A DNA stretch of 64,000 nucleotides. Origin: an uncultured delta proteobacterium (GTDB lineage Bacteria; Desulfobacterota; Binatia; Binatales; Binataceae). Positions 4,682 through 38,303 of the stretch are shown one piece after another. The DNA is taken from the NCBI GenBank assembly GCA_963711565.1, contig CAVQEQ010000004.1:1408001-1472000 (forward strand), in the 5' to 3' direction. A model generated the notes under the pieces. That model saw nothing but the letters and a program-made list of their open reading frames with translations. It ran no database searches and was not told the origin of the DNA. The position numbers and the translations under genes were made by a program. The first letter of the stretch is position 1; each line of letters opens with the position of its first letter.

Positions 4682-4966
4682 TCAAAACAGCTTGGGCCAC
4701 TTCATCGCGCCGTGAAGAACACGCAGCACTGTCACGCTATCGCCCCGATGAAGGTATGCAACGACGTAGGGAAGTCCCGCGATTACCAGCTCGCGCGTGC
4801 CCTGGACGCGACCCGGTCGCCCGATACCCGGGTGTTCGGTTAACATCTCAACCAGCCGAATTATTTCAAGTACGGTTTCGATCGCCGCGCCGGGATTGTC
4901 ACGGCTTATGAATTGCTCGACTGAATCGAGGTCGCGGTCAGCGGCGGGCGTCCACTCTAGCCGCAC
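4682..4966 (-). CDS. Type II TA toxin, RelE/ParE family
   Basis: WTPAADRDL...HPGIGRPGRVQGTRELV...PYVVAY...VLRVLHGAMKWP. Confidence 0.88.
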   Translation of the reverse strand: MRLEWTPAADRDLDSVEQFISRDNPGAAIETVLEIIRLVEMLTEHPGIGRPGRVQGTRELVIAGLPYVVAYLHRGDSVTVLRVLHGAMKWPKLF

Positions 4967-15132: not shown

Positions 15133-15987
15133 ATGAAACTCATCCTCAGCCGCAAGGGATTCGACTCGGTGAACGGCGGATGCCCCAGCCCAATTCTGGA
15201 TGACCGGCTGTACTCGCTTCCAATTCCGGATTCGGGATCACCGACGACCTACGCGGAAATCTCTCCGTTTAATGGTTCGCCAATCGCGCAGATTGTCGAA
15301 GACCTGACCCACGGTCTGGTCAAGCGAAGCGACGGCGCTCATCTCGATCCGGACTTGCGACGCGGCTCGATCGCACGCGCCGCAGGATGGCGTCCGATCT
15401 TCGGGCAGGCAGGAGCCGCGCAGAGTCATCTCGCGAACGAGGGGATCAGCCCAGGCGATCTGTTCCTTTTCTTTGGATATTTTCGTCGCGCCGAGAAAGT
15501 CGGAGACGCGTTCCGCTTCGTCCGCAGCGCGCCGAGACTTCACGTTATCTTCGGATGGCTCCAGGTCGCGAGATTGGCCCGAGCCACAGGCGGTCTCGCC
15601 AATGAGATCCCCTGGGCTAACGGACATCCGCATCTCGCGATGCCCAATCGATACAAGAACAACACCCTCTATTTCGCGCGCCACCGTCTCTCGTCTATCG
15701 GCATCAACACGAGCGGCGCCGGGACCTTCGACCGGATCAGACCTGAGCTGGTGCTCACACAGACCGACCCCTATACCAATTGTTCGACGTGGCGGCTGCC
15801 GCGATGGTTCGCTCCGGGTGGACGACCCGCCCTTTCCTATCACTCAAAGGCGGCGCGTTGGACGGACCGCGCCAAGTCGGTGCGCGTGCAGTCGGCTTAT
15901 CCGGGCCAGGAATTCGTGCTCGACGTTCAGCAGTATCCGGAAGCGCGCGGCTGGTTGCGATCGATCTTCAGCGCCGGCAACAGCTAG
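15133..15987 (+). CDS. Nucleotide modification associated domain 3 (Nmad3)-like protein
   Basis: Recognised from memory of the family: MKLILSRKGFDS..GGCPSPI.....SLPIP, HLDPDL, FGQ.GAAQSHL, GDLFLFFG.F, HVIFGWLQV, HPH and GQEFV. Confidence 0.75.
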   Translation: MKLILSRKGFDSVNGGCPSPILDDRLYSLPIPDSGSPTTYAEISPFNGSPIAQIVEDLTHGLVKRSDGAHLDPDLRRGSIARAAGWRPIFGQAGAAQSHLANEGISPGDLFLFFGYFRRAEKVGDAFRFVRSAPRLHVIFGWLQVARLARATGGLANEIPWANGHPHLAMPNRYKNNTLYFARHRLSSIGINTSGAGTFDRIRPELVLTQTDPYTNCSTWRLPRWFAPGGRPALSYHSKAARWTDRAKSVRVQSAYPGQEFVLDVQQYPEARGWLRSIFSAGNS

Positions 15988-18058: not shown

Positions 18059-20659
18059 TCAGTAGGTCGGCAGAACTCCGGTCGAGGAGCCAACCGTGCC
18101 CGCGCGCTGGAACGGATTGCGCCCGAATGGCCGCTGCCCGATCGAACCCAAACCGCCGAGCGTCAACTGGAACTGGATCTGCACTTCGTTGGGATTGTAC
18201 GAATCGGTAAGGCCAACGTCCGCCGCCCAGCAATCGCACGGCGATTTGAGCCGCACGCCATATTCCGTCAACAGCATTTGAGTCGAAGCGATGTCGTATG
18301 AGGGCGCAAAGTACAGGCCCAACCTGTCGAACACCTCGGTGTACGCGGTGCCCGAAACGAACTCGGCGGCATTCTTGTTAGTCCCCTGAATGACCGTGTC
18401 GGTCCGATTCGCATAGTTGTATCCCAACTGTATGAACGAGCCTTGCAGCGCCTTGCCCATGTAAATATTCGACCCCGGCGTTAACCAAGGCGGCTGATAA
18501 CTTATCGACGTGTCCGCAAACGTGACCCCGGCATGATTGCGCGGGCTGTAATCAACCTCCGTGCTGAATGTCATAAGCTGGCTCAAATAGAGGTGCAGCA
18601 GCGCCTGGATGTCCGACATGTCCGAGTTCTCCGCCACTATGTGCCCGATGTCGTACGCCTGCTGTATCGTCAATGAACCAACCTGCGAGGAATGTTCGCC
18701 GTCGCGGACAATATTCCCGGCGTGTGGGATCGCCGTATCCTCGATCGGCTCTTCGCTGAGCGGCCCGGTCGCCGAATCGGCATCGGACAATCCCTCGTTC
18801 GGAGTCGCGTCCGTGGTCGTCTCCTCCGGCGGCAAATCTCTGGTTTTGGCGAACAGCTTGGTGGTGAAGCCGTAGGTGAAGAGACTGCGCGAGTTCAGGC
18901 GATCGAACGAATCGAACAGGGGCATGTTGCCCTGGTAGATATTCGGCACGTAGTAATAACTCGCAAACGGCTGAATGGTATTTTTGAGCGCCTCGACCGT
19001 CTTCCCGTCAACGTTGTAAACGCGATCGAGAATCGTGGAGATCCCGGCTTTTGCGTAAGGGACGATCCGCGCGGTGTCGCCCGCGGAGCTGAACGGGCTC
19101 AGCACCGCGCAATTGTTCCAAATGAGCTCCTGACCGCCGCCGTCAGCGCAAGTGTTGTTCTGGGGCTTGACCAATTCGGATTTAGGTGTGGTTCCGACCG
19201 GAATGATGTGGATATCATGTCCGTTGGTGTCATAGAACGCCGCCTGCGAACCTATCTGCCCGTAACCCTGTACGTAGTCGCCCCAACGCCATGGCAGCGT
19301 CACGCGAGGATTCGCGTCCAGCCGGAGGCCATCGATCCCTTCGTAGCGGTAGAAGTTGACCGCCTCCGCGTCGTAGTCCGCGTACATCAGGTTGTTGAAC
19401 AATTCCTGGCGTCCGGTCACCGTCGCATCGGGCAGCCGCTGCAACGCGAACTGCTGCGGCTGAATCAGATCCTGGTTCCAGCTTCCTTTGACGTTCACGT
19501 AGGCGTTTTCGAACTCGTCGAGCAGCCCGAAATCCGACGCCGCATCTCGCATCGAGCTCCAATTGTTGCTCTGGAAACCGCGCGACAGCGTCCACACATC
19601 CATCTCGCGCAGGTACAGGCTGTCGCTGACGGAGGCCGTGTCGGCGTACGCCATCAGATCGGGCGTGAGATGCTCCCGCGTCATCCCGATTATCCCGTAG
19701 CGGTCGAGCGGAATGTGCGGATCGGCGATCTGGTAGTCAACGGTGTCGTTGATGCGATTCTGGTCCGATCGGAGCGACTCGTTATAGAACGCGCCGTCCA
19801 CCCACAAATAATCGTCTTTGCCGTTGACCAGCCGATATTCACCCAAGCCACCGACGCGCTGCGAGGTCTCGATATCGAGCGCGACCGTCGCGTCGGAACT
19901 CTTGTTAATCGCCAGGTAGTACGGCTGCAGCCACTGAAAGCCGCGCAGCCCCGATTCACCCTCGCGCCCGCTCAGCAAGCCGCTGTGCCGATCCGTGTCC
20001 GCCGGGAAGACCAGGTACGGGAACGGAATCACCGGGTAGCCCGCCACGTTGAAGGTGCCATTGGTGGCATGGCCCGTATGGCCCATGTTCACCGTCATCT
20101 GGTCAGCGTTTATCGACCACGACGGCGTGCCCTTCTCGCATCCGCAGGTCGTGAAGAAACCCTTCTTCACAACGTAGTTCGGCCCTTCCTGCTTGATGAT
20201 CTCCTGACCCTCGAGGTGGTAAATGTCCTGCTTCGCCAACACCTTCGAGTTGTACAGCACCATCGTCTCATTGGTGATGTTGATCGTCGCCTTGGTCGCC
20301 CACATTTCGACTTCCGGATCGATCAGATGGACATTGCCGATAGCCGTGGCTTGCCGTTCACGGCGCATAATGTCGATTTCGTCGGCCTTCAGCACGCTGC
20401 CGCCCTGGGTCATGACGGCGTCGCCCTTGACGACGAAGGTGTCGGTCTTGGAGTCGTAGATCGTTTCCTGACCGGTGACGTTTACCGGAGCCTCATGCTC
20501 CGCGCGAACCGCGGGAGGAACTGCAAATCCTTTCGATTTTCGGGGCGGGGCTGTTTGTTGGGGCGGTGTGGCCGCATTGGCGATCGCCGGCGAGAGCATC
20601 GCGGCCAACACCATCGCGATCGCGATTCGTTTAAGCGCCGGCTTCAGGAAACAACCCAC
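18059..20659 (-). CDS. lptD: LPS-assembly protein LptD
   Basis: Signal peptide, OstA-like N-terminal domain (LKADEI, GNVHL), FTTC...PSW, R.SGLL, PYYLAI, C-terminal CDCW; downstream of folC. Confidence 0.85.
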   Translation of the reverse strand: MGCFLKPALKRIAIAMVLAAMLSPAIANAATPPQQTAPPRKSKGFAVPPAVRAEHEAPVNVTGQETIYDSKTDTFVVKGDAVMTQGGSVLKADEIDIMRRERQATAIGNVHLIDPEVEMWATKATINITNETMVLYNSKVLAKQDIYHLEGQEIIKQEGPNYVVKKGFFTTCGCEKGTPSWSINADQMTVNMGHTGHATNGTFNVAGYPVIPFPYLVFPADTDRHSGLLSGREGESGLRGFQWLQPYYLAINKSSDATVALDIETSQRVGGLGEYRLVNGKDDYLWVDGAFYNESLRSDQNRINDTVDYQIADPHIPLDRYGIIGMTREHLTPDLMAYADTASVSDSLYLREMDVWTLSRGFQSNNWSSMRDAASDFGLLDEFENAYVNVKGSWNQDLIQPQQFALQRLPDATVTGRQELFNNLMYADYDAEAVNFYRYEGIDGLRLDANPRVTLPWRWGDYVQGYGQIGSQAAFYDTNGHDIHIIPVGTTPKSELVKPQNNTCADGGGQELIWNNCAVLSPFSSAGDTARIVPYAKAGISTILDRVYNVDGKTVEALKNTIQPFASYYYVPNIYQGNMPLFDSFDRLNSRSLFTYGFTTKLFAKTRDLPPEETTTDATPNEGLSDADSATGPLSEEPIEDTAIPHAGNIVRDGEHSSQVGSLTIQQAYDIGHIVAENSDMSDIQALLHLYLSQLMTFSTEVDYSPRNHAGVTFADTSISYQPPWLTPGSNIYMGKALQGSFIQLGYNYANRTDTVIQGTNKNAAEFVSGTAYTEVFDRLGLYFAPSYDIASTQMLLTEYGVRLKSPCDCWAADVGLTDSYNPNEVQIQFQLTLGGLGSIGQRPFGRNPFQRAGTVGSSTGVLPTY

Positions 20660-21941
20660 TCCGCCCCTCGAGCGTCAGAAAATACGGGTAAACTTCGCCG
20701 ATAAGATACACCGATCCCGTAACCAGCGCCACGTCATTTGGCGTCAATTCGGAAATCACCCGCTCGATCGCACGCATCGAATCGCGCTCGACGCGCGCCG
20801 GACAATGCGCCGCGAAATGCGCGACCAGTTCCTCGGGCTCGAGCGGGCTCTTGGGCTTGGCGCGCGTCAAGGTTACGTCGCGCACGCGCGGACCGAGCAT
20901 CGCCGCCATCGCGGCCCACTCCTTCGCCGACTGGCATCCGAATATCAGGCGCGGCTTCACGTCCGGCCCGAGCTCGACGCTCATCGTCTCGAGCAGTGCC
21001 GCGATACTCATTTCGTTGTGCGCACAATCAAGAATTACCAGCGGCCGCTTCGATACGATGTCGAACCGCCCCGGCCAGTATATTTCCCGCAGACCTTTCC
21101 TGATTGCGTCCTCGTCCATCCGCCAACCCTGCGCGCGCAGCGCCTCGAGCGTAGCGACCGCAATCGCGGCATTCTCCTGTTGAAACGGTCCCGCCAGCCC
21201 AAGCTCGAGATCGCGCAGCTCCAACCCGAGTCCGTGGTAGTCCATTCGATGCGCGGGCGCTTGCGAATCGAACGAAAAATCGCGGTCGATCAGACGCACC
21301 GCACTTCCGCGCTGACCAGCAATCAACGTCAGCGCCAGCCGCGCTTCAGGGTCGCGCGCGCCAATCACCACGGGAATGTTGTTCTTGATAATCCCACCCT
21401 TCTCGCCCGCAATCGCGGCAATCGTGTGGCCGAGATATTCCATGTGATCGAAACCGATCGGCGTGATCACGCTCAACATCGGCGTGACGACGTTGGTCGA
21501 ATCGAGCCGCCCGCCAAGTCCCGTCTCTACCACCGCGATATCGACGTTCTCCTCGGCGAAGTAGAGGAACATCATCGCGACCGTGAACTCGAAAAACGTG
21601 AGCGCCATGCCCGCGCGGTCGTAAATCGCGCGCAGCCGCTCGATGTAATGGAGCATCAGCGCCGCTGGAATCTCGGCGCCGGAGATTCGCGTCCGCTCGG
21701 CCAAATTCACAAGATGCGGCTTGGTGTAGAGTCCGGTTCGATACCCCGCCTGCCGCAAACAACTGTCGAGCATGGCGGCAACCGAACCCTTGCCCTTGGT
21801 ACCAGCAATATGAACAGCGCGCAGCTTGCGATGCGGATTGCCAATAAGCTCGAGCGCGGCCTCCATCCGCTCAAGCTTGTAAATCTCGCCGCGCGCTTCC
21901 AGCGAATAGAGCCAGTCGAGAGTCTTCGAGAGTTGGTCCAT
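20631..21941 (-). CDS. folC: Folylpolyglutamate synthase / dihydrofolate synthase
   Basis: HIAGTKGKGS, ETGLGGRLDSTNV, IAGEKGGI, WPGRF, LDCAHN and GSVYLIGE motifs. Confidence 0.95.
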   Translation of the reverse strand: MDQLSKTLDWLYSLEARGEIYKLERMEAALELIGNPHRKLRAVHIAGTKGKGSVAAMLDSCLRQAGYRTGLYTKPHLVNLAERTRISGAEIPAALMLHYIERLRAIYDRAGMALTFFEFTVAMMFLYFAEENVDIAVVETGLGGRLDSTNVVTPMLSVITPIGFDHMEYLGHTIAAIAGEKGGIIKNNIPVVIGARDPEARLALTLIAGQRGSAVRLIDRDFSFDSQAPAHRMDYHGLGLELRDLELGLAGPFQQENAAIAVATLEALRAQGWRMDEDAIRKGLREIYWPGRFDIVSKRPLVILDCAHNEMSIAALLETMSVELGPDVKPRLIFGCQSAKEWAAMAAMLGPRVRDVTLTRAKPKSPLEPEELVAHFAAHCPARVERDSMRAIERVISELTPNDVALVTGSVYLIGEVYPYFLTLEGRSGLFPEAGA

Positions 21942-22061
21942 TTCCAGCCCGGAGTTTACCGGCTATCTGTCACACGAGGAAGATTTCGCGGGTCTGCCTG
22001 CGCAGCTCCTATATGCACGGGAGGCTGGAAATTGTAACTGTACGCGTCTCAGGAGAAATCA

Positions 22062-22352
22062 ATGAGCGAAGGCAGGCGGTTCGACGATGAACAGTTGCGG
22101 GGCGCCAGGTTCCGCGGATGCGGTCTGGCGCAAGCGGAGTTTGATGACGTGGAGTTGGCTGATGCCAGATTCACCAACGTGAATTTGCGCGGGGCGTCGT
22201 TCACCAACATAAACCTGCAAGGCGCTAAGGTTACCGACGCTAATCTCGCCAACGTCAGCATCGACGACTCGAACATCGTCGGCCTCACGATCCTCGGCTG
22301 GAACATCGCGGACCTGATCAAAGAGGCGCAGCAGGGAAAAGGTTCAGGCTAA
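22062..22352 (+). CDS. Pentapeptide repeat protein
   Basis: A(D/N)Lxx-type repeats (ARFTNVNLRGASFTNINLQGAKVTDANL); AGGAG ribosome binding site. Confidence 0.85.
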   Translation: MSEGRRFDDEQLRGARFRGCGLAQAEFDDVELADARFTNVNLRGASFTNINLQGAKVTDANLANVSIDDSNIVGLTILGWNIADLIKEAQQGKGSG

Positions 22353-22444
22353 GATATTCCTCGACGCTTACCCTTCGATGCACCCGCGCCCGCGCCCCGG
22401 TCGCCGCGCGGCCTCGTCAGCATCGCGAGAATTCGCGCTAGCAT
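22349..22444 (-). pseudogene. Orphan duplicate of the accD 3' end (31 codons plus TAG)
   Basis: Translates MLARILAMLTRPRGDRGAGAGASKGKRRGIS*, versus the accD tail TLARILAMLTKPRANRGAAPSASKGKRRRFRDGS*. By hand count 22365-22444 matches 23036-23115 at 60/80 nt with no gaps. Confidence 0.85.
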
Positions 22445-22447
22445 AAG

Positions 22448-22507
22448 CCCCTCACTTAACACCTCCCTCTTTGTGGTATCCCGACCGAAGTCTGTGGAGC
22501 GGAGGGA
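22448..22507. repeat. Degenerate REP-like element (CCCTCAC.TAAC.CCTCC...GGAGGGA)
   Basis: Shares the CCCTCAC(C/T)TAAC head and GAGGG tail with the copies at 3396-3432 and 54567-54605. Confidence 0.5.
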
Positions 22508-22632
22508 TCACCAAACCAACCACCTTGAAGAAAACCCCAACCACTCTCGTCTAACACCCGACTCGGACTCGCAACCGTAGCAAGACCGCTTGTGAACTTC
22601 CGTCTTGCGAAAAACCCTTCGTGAGGTTTTCG

Positions 22633-22986
22633 ATGCGCAAAGGATGGATAGCTTTTCTAATCGGAGCTTTCGTCGTGACGGTGACGCATGCCGGGGTCGC
22701 CCGAGCCCTTACGTGCACTTACGAATCAACCCCGACAACCGGCAACCCTCTATCTCAGTGCTACGTCACAGGTGACGGAACACCTTGTCCACACGGTACC
22801 CAAATAACCGGCGGAGCCTGTTCCAGCGATCCAGCCCTGCCTCTCGTGAGTTCCGAGGTAATCGAAACCCCCGGCGTAACCGATCCGTTCAGTTGGCGCT
22901 GTACCTACCAGCTTCCAACTGTCGGTGACGTCTGCCAAGGGTTGAACAACGTCACCATCACGGCGACGAGTATCTGCTGCAAGTAG
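22633..22986 (+). CDS. Small secreted cysteine-rich hypothetical protein (8 Cys); alternative start GTG 22621
   Basis: Signal peptide ending ARA; CP.G...TGGAC...W.C...ICCK pattern; more A/T-ending codons than the flanking genes. Confidence 0.7.
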   Translation: MRKGWIAFLIGAFVVTVTHAGVARALTCTYESTPTTGNPLSQCYVTGDGTPCPHGTQITGGACSSDPALPLVSSEVIETPGVTDPFSWRCTYQLPTVGDVCQGLNNVTITATSICCK

Positions 22987-23010
22987 ACCCGGCGCCGGGG
23001 TCTTGCGGCA

Positions 23011-23904
23011 TCAGGACCCGTCCCTGAAGCGCCTGCGCTTGCCTTTCGATGCTGACGGAGCTGCGCCCCGATTCGCTCGCGGCTTTGTCAGCATCGCGAG
23101 GATTCGTGCCAGCGTGAAGCGCATCTGATGGCGCGGGACGATCGCGTCCAGCATTCCATGCGCGAGCATGAATTCGGCGCGCTGAAAATCTTCGGGCAAC
23201 TCCTGGTTGCTGGTCTGCGCCGTCACGCAACGTCCCGCGAATCCGATCAGCGCGCCGGGCTCCGAGATGTTCAAATCGCCCAGCATCGCGAACGAAGCGG
23301 CGACGCCGCCGATGGTTGGATCGCACAGCACGGAAATATACGGGAGGCGCGAGGCGCGAAAACGGGCGATCGCGGAAGATACTTTCGCCATCTGCATCAA
23401 CGAGAGCGCACCTTCCTGCATCCGCGCGCCGCCCGACGCGATAAATAAAATCACCGGCAAGCGGCGCTCGCCCGCGACGTCGAACAGCCGCGCGAGCTTC
23501 TCGCCCACCACCACGCCCATGCTGCCGCCCATGAACTCGAAATCCATTACGCCGATCGCCACCGGCCGATTCTCGATTTTGCCGAGGCCGACGACCACCG
23601 CGTCGTTGCGGCCGCTGCTCGCGCGCGCCTGCTCCATCCGATTTGGATACGGGCGCGTATCGACGAAGCCGAGCGGATCGCCAATCGCCATCTCGGCCAT
23701 CAGCTCGCGCCACGTCCCGCGATCGACGCTGATTGAAAGCCGTTGCCCGACGGTGACGCGGAAATGATGGCCGCACTTGGGACATACGTTCAGATTGCGC
23801 TCCACTTCCTTGCGGAACGCCATCTCCTTGCACGACGGGCACTTCGACCAGATATCGTCGGAGGGCGCCTGCGCCGAGGCCGGCGTTTGTTCGCGCTCAG
23901 CCAT
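23011..23904 (-). CDS. accD: Acetyl-CoA carboxylase carboxyltransferase beta subunit
   Basis: Zn ribbon WSKCPSC...VCPKCGHH; FMGGSMG, SGGARMQEG, GGVAASFA and FQRAEF motifs; start overlaps the trpA stop. Confidence 0.96.
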   Translation of the reverse strand: MAEREQTPASAQAPSDDIWSKCPSCKEMAFRKEVERNLNVCPKCGHHFRVTVGQRLSISVDRGTWRELMAEMAIGDPLGFVDTRPYPNRMEQARASSGRNDAVVVGLGKIENRPVAIGVMDFEFMGGSMGVVVGEKLARLFDVAGERRLPVILFIASGGARMQEGALSLMQMAKVSSAIARFRASRLPYISVLCDPTIGGVAASFAMLGDLNISEPGALIGFAGRCVTAQTSNQELPEDFQRAEFMLAHGMLDAIVPRHQMRFTLARILAMLTKPRANRGAAPSASKGKRRRFRDGS

Positions 23905-24745
23905 CTGAATTCTCCGCTGCGGCATGATCCGTTCGCCGTGCCGCTTTCATCGCATCTTTCATCGCGCCGACCAATCCGCCCACCGCCTCCGGCACGTCGC
24001 CGGATTTGGCGTGCGCTTCGACTATCATGGAAATCGCGCTGCCGACTACGACCGCGTCCGCCATCGTTGCGACCTCGGCGGCCTGCGCGGGCGTCGAGAT
24101 GCCGAAGCCGACGCCGATCGGCAGATCGGTCACGCTGCGAATCTCGCGCATGTGATCGCCGATGCCGGTATCAAGATGAGCGCGCGCGCCAGTCACCCCA
24201 GTCAACGACACATAGTATAGGAAGCCACTGGCGGAGCGCGCGATCGCGCGGCTTCGCTCCATCGGCGTCGTCGGCGCGAGCAGATAGATCAGGTCGAGGC
24301 CGTTGGCGCGCGCGGGTTTCTTGAGCTCGCCCGCTTCCTCCGGCGGCAAATCCACGACCAGCAACGCGTCGATACCTGCGCGCGCGGCGTCAGCGCAGAG
24401 CCGATCGCATCCGTAATGAAAAATCGGGTTGTAGTAGCCGAACAGGATCAGCGGAATCTGCGTCTGCGCGCGAAGCTCGCTCACCATCGAGAGTATCGCC
24501 GCCAACGAGGCGCCCGCGCCAAGTCCGCGCGCGATCGCGCGCTGATTGGCGGGCCCGTCCGCCATCGGATCGGAAAACGGCACGCCCAACTCGATCAAGT
24601 CGGCGCCGCGAGCCTCGAGTTCGAGCACGAGGCGCCGCGTCGTGTCCATATCGGGATCGCCGGCGACGATGAACGGGATCAGCGCCGCCTCGCCGCGCGC
24701 GCGCAGCTCGCGAAATTTACGTTTGATTCTATGCGCTGCCGCCAT
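23897..24745 (-). CDS. trpA: Tryptophan synthase alpha chain
   Basis: IELGVPFSDPMADGP, VDLPPEE, YYVSLTGVTG and VGFGIS motifs; start placed at ATG 24745. Confidence 0.96.
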   Translation of the reverse strand: MAAAHRIKRKFRELRARGEAALIPFIVAGDPDMDTTRRLVLELEARGADLIELGVPFSDPMADGPANQRAIARGLGAGASLAAILSMVSELRAQTQIPLILFGYYNPIFHYGCDRLCADAARAGIDALLVVDLPPEEAGELKKPARANGLDLIYLLAPTTPMERSRAIARSASGFLYYVSLTGVTGARAHLDTGIGDHMREIRSVTDLPIGVGFGISTPAQAAEVATMADAVVVGSAISMIVEAHAKSGDVPEAVGGLVGAMKDAMKAARRTDHAAAENSDG

Positions 24746-35318: not shown

Positions 35319-37489
35319 TCAGTCCACGTGTAACCGCGCTGCCAGCCGCGAGAAGCGAAGGCGCTCGTCCTGGTTGCGCACCGCCTGCTGCAACGCGCCC
35401 TTCGTCCCGACCAGCACGCATACACGCTCGGCGCGCGTGATCGCCGTATAGAGCAGATTGCGGCGCAGCATCAGGTAGTGGCTCGAATGTATCGGCATCA
35501 CGATCGCGGGATACTGGCTGCCCTGGCTCTTGTGCACCGAGATGGCGTAGGCGAGCGCGAGTTCGTCGAGCTCCGACAGATCGTATTCGGCGTGCGTCTC
35601 CTCGAACACGACGCTGAGGCGCGCCTTATCGGTGTCGATCGCGAGAATCCTCCCGATCGAGCCGTTGAAGACGCCCTTGTCGTAATTGTTGCGCAACTGG
35701 ATGACGCGATCCCCCTCTCGAAACGTCCGGTCGCCAGAGCGGATTTCGCGGCCTACTGGATTCAGCAAAGCTTGCAACTCGCGATTTAGAATGTGCGTGC
35801 CGAGCGGGCCGCGATTCATCGGGGTCAGCACTTGGATATCGCGCGGATCGTTGATGCCGAAGCGTCCAATCAGGCGCTGCTGCAAGAGCTGCTTGATCGT
35901 CGCGAGCACGTCCTCGGCGGCGTTGCGCTCGAAGAAGAAGAAGTCGCCTTCGGCGTCGTTGGAGAGTTGCGGGAACTCGCCGCGATTCAGGCGATGAGCG
36001 TTGGCGACGATCAAGCTGCGGCGCGCCTGCCGGTAAACCTCCTTCAACTGCACCACCGGCACGAAGCCGGACGCGATCACGTCCTTGAGCACACTGCCGG
36101 GACCGACCGACGGCAGTTGATCGCGATCGCCGACCAGCAACAGCGAGCAGTTCGGCATCAGCGCGGACAGCAGGCTGGAGGCGAGCTCGACATCCATCAT
36201 CGAGGCCTCGTCGATGATCAGATAATTGGTGCGGAGCGGAAAATTCTTGCCGCGGATGAATCCGCCGCTCTGCGGATCGTATTCGAGCAGTCGGTGAATC
36301 GTCTGCGCATCGCGGCCCGCGGCGTCCTGGAGCCGGCGAGCGGCGCGTCCGGTCGGCGCGGCGAGCGTGGGCTTCAAACCAACGTCGGCGAGCGCGACCA
36401 GCAGCGAGCGCAGCAAAGTCGTCTTGCCAGTGCCGGGACCGCCGGTGATTACAGTGACGCAGCTCGCCAGCGCGCATCGCAGCGCGCTCTTTTGTTCGGC
36501 TGAAAGCTCCAGTTCAGACGATTTGATCGCGGCCGTGACCGCGCGATCGATCAGCTCTTTGTTCATCGCGCGGCCCGCGCTCAATTCCGCGATTCGCGCG
36601 GCGACGTTCACTTCCGCCTCGTGCAGGCGCGCGAGGTAAATCGCGATGTGGTCGTCCGCTTCTTCCGCGATCACCTCGCCGCCGGCGGCGAGCTCGTTGA
36701 CGGCGTCGTGCGCGAGGTCAGGGTCCATCTCGAGTGCGGTGCGGAACTGCCCTTCGAGATACTCGAACGGCGAATAGACGTGACCCTCGTCGGACATGCG
36801 TTCGAGGATGTAGAGGACGGCGGCGCGCGCGCGCTGGATCGAGTTGCGCGGGATACCGAGTTTCTCCGCGATGGCGTCGGCGGTGCGAAAGCCGATGCCG
36901 TGAATCGTGTGTGCGAGCACGTACGGGTCACGCTTGACAACGTCGAGCGCGTCCTTGCCGTAGAACTTGTGGATGCGCCGTGCGTGCGTCGCCGCCAGTC
37001 CGTGGCCGCGCAGAAAGACGGTCAGCTCGCGCAGGCCCGACGCGTCGCGCCAGGTCGTCGCGATCAGGCGCGCAACCGCGGCGCTGATGCCTGAGACCTC
37101 GCGCATGCGTTCGGGCGCGTTGTCGAGCACTTCGCCGAGCGTGTCGCCGAAATGCTCCGAGATTCGCCGCGCGAGCCTTGGGCCGATACCTTTTATTTCG
37201 GAAGCGAGGTAGCGCTCTATCGCTACGGCGCCGGCGGCCGCAGCGTTTCGAAATCGACTACGTGGAACTGCTCGCCATAGGTCTTGTGCTGCTCGAAGCC
37301 GCCGAGCGCTCGAATGGTCGAACCGACTTCGAGACCGGCTAGATTGCCGACGACGGTGACGCGGCGGAAGTCGCCATGCTCCTGAGGCACGACTACGATG
37401 GCGACCGAGTAGCCGCTCTTGTCGTTGACGAACAAGACTTGGTCGAGGATGCCTTCGAGCGTCTCGTTCGCTTGAACCGCTTGTGCCAC
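35319..37489 (-). CDS. recD2: ATP-dependent RecD-like helicase RecD2; frameshifted by a missing base near 37236 (probable sequence error)
   Basis: N-terminal part (37223-37489, HKTYGEQF) continues in another frame as IERYLASEIKGIGP; GGPGTGKTT, APTGRAA, IIDEASM, QLPSVGPG and HKSQGSQY motifs. Confidence 0.92.
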
Positions 37490-38027: not shown

Positions 38028-38303
38028 GTGATTAAGAGCTTCCGCCACAAGGGACTCAAGGAACTCTTCGAAACGGGTGGCAGCGCCGCAATCCCGCCCC
38101 AACTCAGGAGACGCTGCGCGACGATGTTGGAAGTAATCGATGAAGCCGAAAATCTGATCGACTTGTCCGGTCCAGGCTACAGAACTCATCCGCTGAACAC
38201 GAATCCGCAACGCTATGCGATGGCAGTCAATGGACCGTGGCGCATCACCTTCGAATTCGACAATGGCAGCGCTCTTAGAATCGATCTAGAGCAATACCAT
38301 TGA
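38028..38303 (+). CDS. higB: Type II TA toxin HigB (RelE/ParE superfamily)
   Basis: MIKSFRHKGLKELFETG...PGY..HPL...VNGPWRITFEF...DLEQYH; toxin-first gene order. Confidence 0.9.
   Translation: MIKSFRHKGLKELFETGGSAAIPPQLRRRCATMLEVIDEAENLIDLSGPGYRTHPLNTNPQRYAMAVNGPWRITFEFDNGSALRIDLEQYH

What the first reader, a model, noticed from the sequence alone, without database searches (positions are those of the whole stretch)
22349..23115. Diverged duplicate of the accD 3' end brackets a REP-like element and a cargo gene (possible tail-replacement integration)
Seen: 22365-22444 aligns without gaps to accD 23036-23115 (offset 671, 60/80 nt by hand count). The copy still encodes LARILAMLT.PR..RGA...ASKGKRR, and many differences are synonymous. 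Its TAG overlaps the TAA of the convergent pentapeptide gene. Between the two copies lie a degenerate CCCTCAC.TAAC palindrome, 3 nt from the copy boundary, and one opposite-strand, more AT-rich gene. Established: elements that integrate into essential genes often supply a replacement 3' end and leave the old one behind. Inference: the orphan is the ancestral accD tail, and a ~670-bp cassette from a relative replaced it. No integrase or transposase is in the window, so recombination anchored on homology at one end and a REP at the other is a candidate gene-capture route.
Basis: partly seen in the sequence, partly recalled or inferred. Interest (0 to 1): 0.75.

Follow-up and report, generated by a model that had tools for sequence, protein, structure and literature searches.

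The report
Swapped accD tail from gene capture
An essential fatty-acid gene in a soil bacterium ends in a piece that likely came from a related species together with one extra gene, while its old end lies stranded just behind; the same scar sits at about two dozen other gene ends in this genome and likely marks ordinary homology-driven DNA capture without an integrase, not a new mobile element.

Summary
The duplicate is real (60/80 nt, the only other copy in the genome) and is not an assembly chimera: contigs from other studies bridge it. The orphan is the resident accD end. Its tail type and its stop overlap with the pentapeptide gene match the cassette-free allele of several genus relatives; the current tail resembles another clade. 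It is not a one-off. The same layout (gene, cargo, leftover tail) occurs at about 25 gene ends here, with no recombinase in the cargo. It recurs at accD, RNase G and clpA in other species with different junctions, even for the same cargo. Best mechanism: single-crossover integration of a short end-joined donor fragment (0.5), or a linear HFIR-like variant (0.25). This is a variant of 'insertion with long target duplication', with diverged repeats and non-RM cargo. Small samples from two other families show similar numbers. This scan has noted the same architecture on other DNA, including another Binatia genome.

The parts
23011..23904 (-). accD, acetyl-CoA carboxylase carboxyltransferase beta subunit (anchor gene; longest ORF starts at 23925)
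   Evidence: Pfam PF01039 and PF17848; gene call
23011..23115 (-). Current, likely donor-derived 3' end of accD (...KGKRRRFRDGS*)
   Evidence: Copy 1 of the repeat. Best matches are G035 81/102, G008 80/102, G034 78/102, while the accD body groups with G022 (99/83)
22633..22986 (+). Cargo gene, 117 aa from the ATG at 22633, 8 Cys, hydrophobic N-terminus (predicted secreted), no known family
   Evidence: ORF; no Pfam hit; 5 homologs, 52-96%; 2 of 46 genus relatives hold a homolog, at other loci
22519..22640 (+). Leader that travels with the cargo gene (likely promoter and 5' UTR)
   Evidence: 76% DNA match upstream of the G063 homolog at a different locus
22448..22511 (.). Decayed REP remnants: left half of the CCCTCACC..CTCTCCC family followed by a copy of the TCATCC(C/T)GA.CG.AG family; no longer folds
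   Evidence: Families have 77 and 12 pattern matches in the genome; 22467-22511 matches scattered sites in 6 relatives; z about 0
22349..22444 (-). Orphan: displaced resident 3' end of accD (LARILAMLT...KGKRRGIS*), no upstream coding sequence
   Evidence: Continues into the pentapeptide stop exactly as true accD ends do in relatives
22062..22352 (+). Pentapeptide-repeat gene, convergent; the resident neighbour of accD
   Evidence: Pfam PF00805; follows accD in 11 of 36 genus relatives, directly in 8
20631..21941 (-). folC-type Mur-ligase-family gene, conserved downstream flank
Evidence: Pfam PF08245, PF02875; synteny.

Best explanation
The 671-bp piece (new accD end, cargo gene, REP remnant) is likely a fragment of a related species' chromosome that entered by one recombination event inside the last 100 bases of accD, so that the gene now ends in the incoming tail and its old end stands behind the cargo. 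Shown: the two tails, the resident identity of the orphan, the lack of a recombinase, and recurrence with variable junctions at this and other genes. Inferred: a short linear donor fragment carrying a gene end plus whatever lay behind it was closed into a circle by end joining, and the circle integrated by a single crossover at the shared gene end. The circle's random joint becomes the sharp cargo/orphan boundary, and the length of shared sequence sets the repeat length (about 30-140 nt). The target gene stays intact, so essential genes tolerate it. The REP came along as passenger DNA. Counting the linear variant (first rival), one-sided homology-anchored capture has about 0.75.
For: (1) Orphan = resident: 8 of 36 relatives have accD abutting the pentapeptide gene, and 10 of 36 end in a G[VA]S/EVS/RVS-TAG type tail; none ends in FRDGS. 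At clpA the orphan-to-next-gene spacing in G000 (552 nt) equals the cassette-free G070 (553) and G033 (555). (2) Short donor tract: G000 accD tracks G022 (0.90-0.93) up to about 50 nt before the junction, and only the last window tracks the G035 clade. (3) No fixed att core: accD orphans start at different places in G000, G019, G005 and G022. One TA cassette (83-90% identical) sits behind RNase G in G011, G064 and G062 with orphans of 36, 65 and 30 nt; one cargo start sits behind clpA in G017 and G034 with 137 and 125 nt. (4) 26 hits at 25 gene ends in G000; no recombinase or transposase family among the cargo ORFs of the 20 loci scanned or at accD; none of the 9 tyrosine and 1 serine recombinase hits lies inside any. 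(5) 125 of 229 differences are at third positions and 93 of 188 changed codons are synonymous, so both copies have a coding history. (6) Ku, a LigD-type gene 2 kb from it, ComEC and DprA are present; no reverse transcriptase was found. (7) Precedent: in E. coli 56 of 60 clones from DNA with one-sided homology carried a partial duplication (109-950 bp in the 14 sequenced), ascribed to degradation, recircularisation and single crossover (PMC3240628, passages and Discussion).
Against: The two accD tails share at most 14 identical bases in a row, a poor substrate for RecA by established knowledge. In G019 (111 of 112 nt identical), G017 (first 73 identical) and G034 both copies carry the host's own alleles in the inner part. 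A plain reciprocal crossover with a foreign donor does not predict this without gene conversion or a same-species donor. Mismatches are only mildly depleted in the inner half (21 seen, 28.1 expected, P = 0.023, 9 cases, alignment-edge effects not fully removed). Transformation delivers single strands, whereas Ku/LigD acts on double-strand ends (own knowledge). No donor allele with this cargo behind accD was found in 47 genomes. No circle and no same-species empty allele was seen in 8 runs (contigs only). The donor assignment of the new tail rests on about 25 terminal bases; the orphan is also 73/90 identical to G008. Some of the 25 loci are weak (C1:960013, C3:273975, C1:1139854, C3:1373022, C4:220389).
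Confidence: 0.5

Rival explanations
1. Linear, HFIR-like capture without deletion. An incoming single strand pairs at the gene end, the resident strand is displaced as a flap rather than degraded, and the free foreign end is ligated to the flap. Strand-displacement synthesis or mismatch repair would make the inner part of both copies resident-type. No circle is needed.
For: Resident alleles in both copies at clpA in G017 and G034 and at accD in G019; ComEC and DprA present; the same model is proposed for T6SS and rhs orphan arrays (PMC5361080, passages); most published long-target-duplication cases are in competent species (PMC2853133).
Against: Described HFIR products generally carry a deletion of about the insert's size, not a duplication (PMC3240628). 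In E. coli the circle route was about 10 times more frequent. The flap step is my inference, with no experiment behind it.
Confidence: 0.25
2. Decayed integrative element. An integrase-coding phage or island inserted in the accD 3' end and supplied a replacement tail (as phage 21 and e14 do at icd), then lost its integrase and nearly all its DNA.
For: The layout is the same as attL/attR with a displaced gene end (PMC12540744, passages). The genome has 9 tyrosine recombinase hits, and tRNA-end duplicates of this type exist in it.
Against: Junctions differ between events at one gene, also for one cargo. 25 unrelated anchors, no recombinase remnant in any scanned cargo, including 93-99% identical (young) cases.
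Confidence: 0.1
3. Local duplication of the resident tail, with cargo inserted between the copies later, followed by drift or gene conversion.
For: Near-identical inner parts in several young cases. After a true duplication with one copy still under selection I estimate about 46% third-position differences, so the pooled 55% is only a moderate excess.
Against: The new accD end matches another clade and differs in length and stop codon from the orphan. The same cargo lies directly behind copy 1 in different species. In the 10 cases at 87% identity or more, 32 of 43 differences are at third positions (counted).
Confidence: 0.1
4. REP/RAYT-anchored capture. Homology fixes one end and an HUH transposase cutting at a REP makes the other joint.
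For: REP remnants lie within about 30 nt of the orphan in 3 of 4 accD cases and at clpA in G030. Two Y1_Tnp genes exist in G000.
Against: 2 of 26 junctions carry a listed REP motif, about 1.2 expected from 4.4% background; two further palindromes not on my list are visible by eye. None of the 5 RNase G junctions shows one by eye. The element here is truncated and does not fold. The RAYT at C1 is flanked by a different repeat family.
Confidence: 0.04
5. Chimeric assembly of two strains.
For: The genome is assembled from a mixed community, and one neighbouring gene (recD2) is frameshifted.
Against: One X1 contig spans all 2.5 kb with 3 differences (it may be the source). One X5 contig from another study spans 21500-23533 with 20 differences. 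X6, X7, X8, X10, X11 and X13 contigs bridge the orphan/REP junction.
Confidence: 0.01

Closest known systems
Insertion with long target duplication (Nobusato et al. 2000, seen only as a reference; Furuta, Abe and Kobayashi 2010, PMC2853133: passages and sections 15 and 18 read, supplements not read)
   Same: Insert under 20 kb, direct repeats over 30 bp of variable length, no other mobile element, repeats often spanning a start or stop codon so the target gene stays intact, empty site in relatives.
   Different: Published cases were sought among restriction-modification genes, and the repeats I saw in Table 2 are 44/46 to 47/47 identical. Here the repeats are 75-99% identical with synonymous bias (two alleles, not one copied target), the cargo is general (TA systems, HNH, glycosyltransferase, unknown secreted proteins), and there are dozens per genome.
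Single-crossover integration of recircularised DNA with one-sided homology in E. coli (PMC3240628: passages and Discussion read)
   Same: Variable-length partial duplication of the homologous end flanking foreign DNA, no integrase.
   Different: Laboratory plasmid with identical homology, delivered by conjugation, duplications 109-950 bp. Here natural, cross-species, 30-140 bp; no intermediate observed.
Homology-facilitated illegitimate recombination, and C-terminal displacement at rhs and T6SS effector loci (PMC5361080 passages; PMC3240628 passages)
   Same: One homologous anchor, one non-homologous joint, old 3' end pushed downstream, serial events possible (two orphans at C2:84533).
   Different: Classical HFIR deletes resident DNA. 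The rhs/T6SS cases swap toxin domains; here ordinary housekeeping gene ends serve as docking sites for unrelated cargo.
Phage 21 and e14 at E. coli icd (listed in PMC12540744, passages; the replacement-tail detail for icd is recalled)
   Same: Incoming DNA restores an interrupted gene and leaves a duplicate of the displaced end.
   Different: Those use a cognate integrase and a fixed att core; neither is found here.

Membership tests
Insertion with long target duplication (Furuta 2010) | Direct repeat longer than 30 bp, variable in length | tested here: met
   78-96 nt here; 32-140 nt across cases
Insertion with long target duplication (Furuta 2010) | Insert under 20 kb with no other mobile element | tested here: met
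   671 bp; no recombinase or transposase
Insertion with long target duplication (Furuta 2010) | Empty site with a single copy in a related genome | tested here: met
   8 of 36 genus relatives have accD abutting the pentapeptide gene; met at genus level only, no same-species empty allele seen
Insertion with long target duplication (Furuta 2010) | Restriction-modification genes in the insert | tested here: not met
   Cargo has no Pfam family; an HNH and a RAMA-domain gene occur at 2 of 20 other loci scanned
Insertion with long target duplication (Furuta 2010) | Both repeats near-identical to the target | tested here: not met
   76% here; near-identical in G019 (111/112)
Integrase-driven integrative element (phage 21/e14 type) | Cognate integrase in or beside the insert | tested here: not met
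   Nearest tyrosine recombinase about 41 kb away; none in cargo
Integrase-driven integrative element (phage 21/e14 type) | Fixed att core shared by independent insertions at the gene | tested here: not met
   Four different orphan starts at accD; different starts for one cargo at RNase G and clpA
HFIR | One homologous anchor and one non-homologous joint | tested here: met
   Homology only at the accD end; sharp unrelated boundary at 22444/22445
HFIR | Deletion of resident DNA at the joint | tested here: not met
   Resident tail and neighbour are retained; duplication instead
HFIR | RecA dependence, arising during transformation | not testable with these tools
   ComEC and DprA are present, but no activity can be tested
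REP/REPIN element mobilised by RAYT | Intact palindromic REP at the element end, enriched at junctions | tested here: not met
   No fold; 2 of 26 junctions against 4.4% background
REP/REPIN element mobilised by RAYT | Cognate RAYT flanked by the same REP family | tested here: inconclusive
   Two Y1_Tnp genes; one is flanked by another repeat family, the other shows none of these REPs within the 1.6 kb read

The most novel reading that the evidence does not exclude
Binatia, and perhaps many prokaryotes, run a routine host-encoded, integrase-free capture pathway: short DNA fragments from congeners are docked at the ends of core genes through as little as 30-100 bp of imperfect homology, closed by end joining or flap ligation, and the inner part of the target is truly copied. 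Certain gene ends (accD, RNase G, clpA; not lptD) act as reusable docking hot spots through which TA, defence and surface genes spread between species, leaving a countable scar at about 0.6% of genes and at roughly a tenth of genomes per hot spot.
Probability: 0.3. Interest if true: 0.65.

Novelty: new variant of a known kind. Interest (0 to 1): 0.4.

Why it matters
If the reading holds, small accessory genes can enter at essential gene ends with no mobile-element enzyme, and each event leaves a datable scar that records donor and recipient alleles side by side. About 49 kb (1%) of this genome lies between such repeats (sum of spacings). It gives a concrete, testable mechanism for 'insertion with long target duplication', whose entry step was left hypothetical in PMC2853133. 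The repeated independent capture of one cassette at one gene end with different joints is the most useful new evidence.

Tried and rejected
3' polarity: gene-end queries suggested 3' tails far outnumber 5' heads (40 against 15 raw hits). An unbiased repeat scan found roughly 15-20 promoter or 5'-UTR duplicates, judged by eye, that those queries could not see. Strong polarity is rejected; some of those may be shared regulatory motifs. Genus specificity: 400-kb samples gave G007 0, G017 2, G043 1 and 2, G049 4 (2 with cargo) 3'-downstream hits, against 3, 1 and 1 in three G000 slices after removing REP hits. There is no sign that this genus is special, but the samples are small. 64 non-Binatia accD neighbourhoods (651 kb) gave no real case, and neither did 16 Binatia ones; they are biased to conserved operons and uninformative. 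Self-folding replacement tails (lead, z = -3.0, and from note e1-8677840): new tails fold slightly better than orphans (P = 0.02) but not better than 150 control gene ends (P = 0.14), so not supported. A tiny accD remnant in G021 was not significant (46 of 200 shuffles scored as high). A profile built from accD tails missed G022 and gave G005 only E = 0.053; both rest on self-alignment (0 of 200 shuffles). The folC tree leaves G000 unplaced. The X7 joint 22334-23063 is at 85% likeness and may be a relative, so it is not counted as a same-species empty allele. Cargo function: no Pfam hit, Atlas hits below 0.9 and unnamed; no structure was predicted. The protein searches with the cargo used residues 4-117. 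Replichore orientation could not be assigned from the GC skew. Literature searches found no paper on diverged tail-replacement scars genome-wide or in Binatia; most subscription journals are not in the library, and the supplements of PMC2853133 (Table 3 cases, repeat identities) were not read and may hold diverged examples.

Full report
Observation. The repeat is as described: 22365-22444 against 23036-23115, ungapped, 60 of 80 identical, E 8e-9 against the 4.84-Mb genome with no other copy. The orphan encodes LARILAMLTRPRGDRGAGAGASKGKRRGIS* and starts abruptly at 22444; its TAG overlaps the stop of a pentapeptide-repeat gene. Between the copies lie a 117-codon, 8-cysteine gene of no known family on the opposite strand, its leader, and REP remnants. 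The closest named accD records (85-91% protein identity) are labelled Ca. Binatus or Binataceae. The assembly is sound: a contig from a second study spans 21500-23533 with 20 differences, and contigs of six more runs bridge the orphan/REP junction (8 of 23 listed runs were laid).

Which tail is old. I fetched the accD region of 36 genus relatives. The accD-folC gap runs from 2 to 2975 nt in the 32 where both genes lie in the fetched stretch. The pentapeptide gene follows accD in 11 of 36, directly in 8. Ten of 36 end in a G[VA]S, EVS or RVS tail with TAG, several with the same stop overlap as the orphan; none ends in FRDGS. The orphan plus the pentapeptide stop aligns over about 100 nt to true accD ends. 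The current tail best matches G035, G008 and G034, whereas the accD body groups with G022 (99/83) and tracks it to about 50 nt before the junction. So the orphan is the resident end and the donor tract is short. The donor call rests on about 25 terminal bases. The cargo has homologs in 2 of 46 relatives, at other loci; one keeps the same leader.

Recurrence at one gene. Orphan accD tails also occur in G019 (111 of 112 nt identical, 1.9-kb cargo with a 551-codon ORF), G005 (56 nt) and G022 (32 nt), that is 3 of 36 relatives, each with its own junction. A protein search of all 47 genus genomes saw only G000 and G019; the 10 additional genomes were not checked at DNA level. At RNase G a second match occurs in 5 of 43 genomes with the gene, and DNA self-search of 30 loci added G011, G062 and G065. 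At clpA it occurs in 5 of 45. The control lptD gave 0 of 44. One TA cassette, 83-90% identical, lies behind RNase G in G011, G064 and G062 with orphans of 36, 65 and 30 nt, and G017 and G034 share 275 nt of cargo behind clpA with orphans of 137 and 125 nt. Independent events with variable joints argue against a site-specific recombinase; descent from one event with later erosion is less likely but not excluded.

Genome-wide. With my own gene caller (it missed the cargo gene), the last 200 nt of 3900 genes were compared with 12 kb on each side. Same-strand, downstream, non-genic copies gave 40 hits; the opposite-strand controls gave 2 and 5. I dropped 14 hits at 6 genes (REP read-through, repeat proteins, one repeated block), leaving 26 hits at 25 anchors, about 5 of them weak. 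Anchors include P450, UspA, RNase HII, LptF/G, RNase G, trigger factor, ClpA and Pth; cargo includes MqsRA, MazF, HNH, RAMA, GrpB, a methyltransferase, a glycosyltransferase, Rhs and collagen-like proteins, with no recombinase or transposase in the 20 loci scanned. None of 10 recombinase hits lies inside a locus. Differences favour third positions (125 of 229) and synonymous codons (93 of 188); part of that excess would also follow a true duplication. The apparent 3' polarity largely dissolves once promoter duplicates are counted. Small samples from two other families of the class show similar numbers.

The REP. The element is a non-folding remnant of two repeat families that have 77 and 12 pattern matches in the genome. 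Listed REP motifs lie within 80 nt of 2 of 26 junctions, against 344 of 7769 intergenic windows. Three of the four accD cases do have a REP close to the orphan, but this interval is REP-rich in many relatives with no orphan. I read the REP as a passenger.

Mechanism. Shown: one-sided homology, retained resident end, variable joints, no recombinase. Inferred: how the second joint forms. An end-joined circle integrating by single crossover has experimental precedent (56 of 60 clones; PMC3240628), and Ku and a LigD-type gene are present: 0.5. A linear HFIR-like route with flap ligation better explains why both copies carry resident alleles in their inner part in G019, G017 and G034, and ComEC and DprA are present: 0.25. 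Against the circle: only 14 identical bases in a row at accD. A decayed integrative element (0.1), local duplication (0.1), REP/RAYT anchoring (0.04) and artefact (0.01) follow. My reading before favoured the HFIR-like form; the scan's note e1-6985052 and the reading of PMC3240628 moved it.

Comparison and novelty. It works like 'insertion with long target duplication' (PMC2853133) and meets its structural criteria, but not the RM cargo or the near-identical repeats, so I file it as a variant. It fails membership of integrase-driven elements, classical HFIR (no deletion) and REP/RAYT elements. Six literature searches found no genome-wide account of diverged tail-replacement scars; the library lacks most subscription journals and I read no supplements. 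This scan's earlier notes report the same layout in several other bacteria and archaea, including another Binatia genome; they are unchecked and are not used as support. Verdict: real, correctly read as tail replacement, wrong about the REP, one instance of a common process. Interest 0.4.

Noticed in passing
window 35322-37489 (-): recD2 is split: the N-terminal OB domain (88 aa) stops and the rest continues in another frame. It may be a real frameshift or an assembly error.
   Followed up: partly
G000:C2:84533-89006 (L077): Serial capture: a PhyH-family gene is followed by two orphan tails, and the promoter and start of the next gene are also duplicated.
   Followed up: partly
G000:C1:110421-115549 (L073): Nested events: a promoter-like duplicate (110421 and 115500) brackets a P450 gene that itself has a 123-nt orphan tail.
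   Followed up: no
G000, e.g. C3:384894/386642, C1:360354/362806, C4:932217/936503, C3:1102339/1103685, C4:1487624/1490324: Roughly 15-20 diverged duplicates of promoter or 5'-UTR segments flank 1-5 kb inserts, the likely 5' counterpart of tail replacement.
   Followed up: partly
L134 (G063:C715): The cargo homolog (59%) keeps the same leader but sits on the opposite strand between two paralogous genes that look like sulfotransferases (name from my reading of the sequence, no family search).
   Followed up: no
window 23128-23614: A same-species contig (X5) differs from the window mostly inside the accD body just upstream of the new tail, which may be a recombination patch.
   Followed up: no
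L044 (G025): The pentapeptide gene behind accD is present as a tandem pair, one copy internally shortened.
   Followed up: no
L071 (G000:C1:341305): A RAYT-like Y1 transposase directly downstream of a gene that looks like rho, flanked by a GTGGGGCGGGCC-type repeat with 37 pattern matches in the genome.
   Followed up: partly
L031 (G021), behind accD: Three short ORFs starting with a shared M[KN]..RHAAALAL leader lie in a row; a similar ORF follows the RAYT in L071. Possibly a mobile family of small secreted proteins.
   Followed up: no
window 4685-4966, 15133-15987, 38028-38300: ParE toxin, an Nmad3-domain gene and a HigB-like toxin sit singly between housekeeping genes; no flanking tail duplicates were found for them.
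   Followed up: no
window 23036-23120: The new accD tail folds as a long hairpin (z = -3.0); the orphan does not. No general trend across loci.
   Followed up: yes
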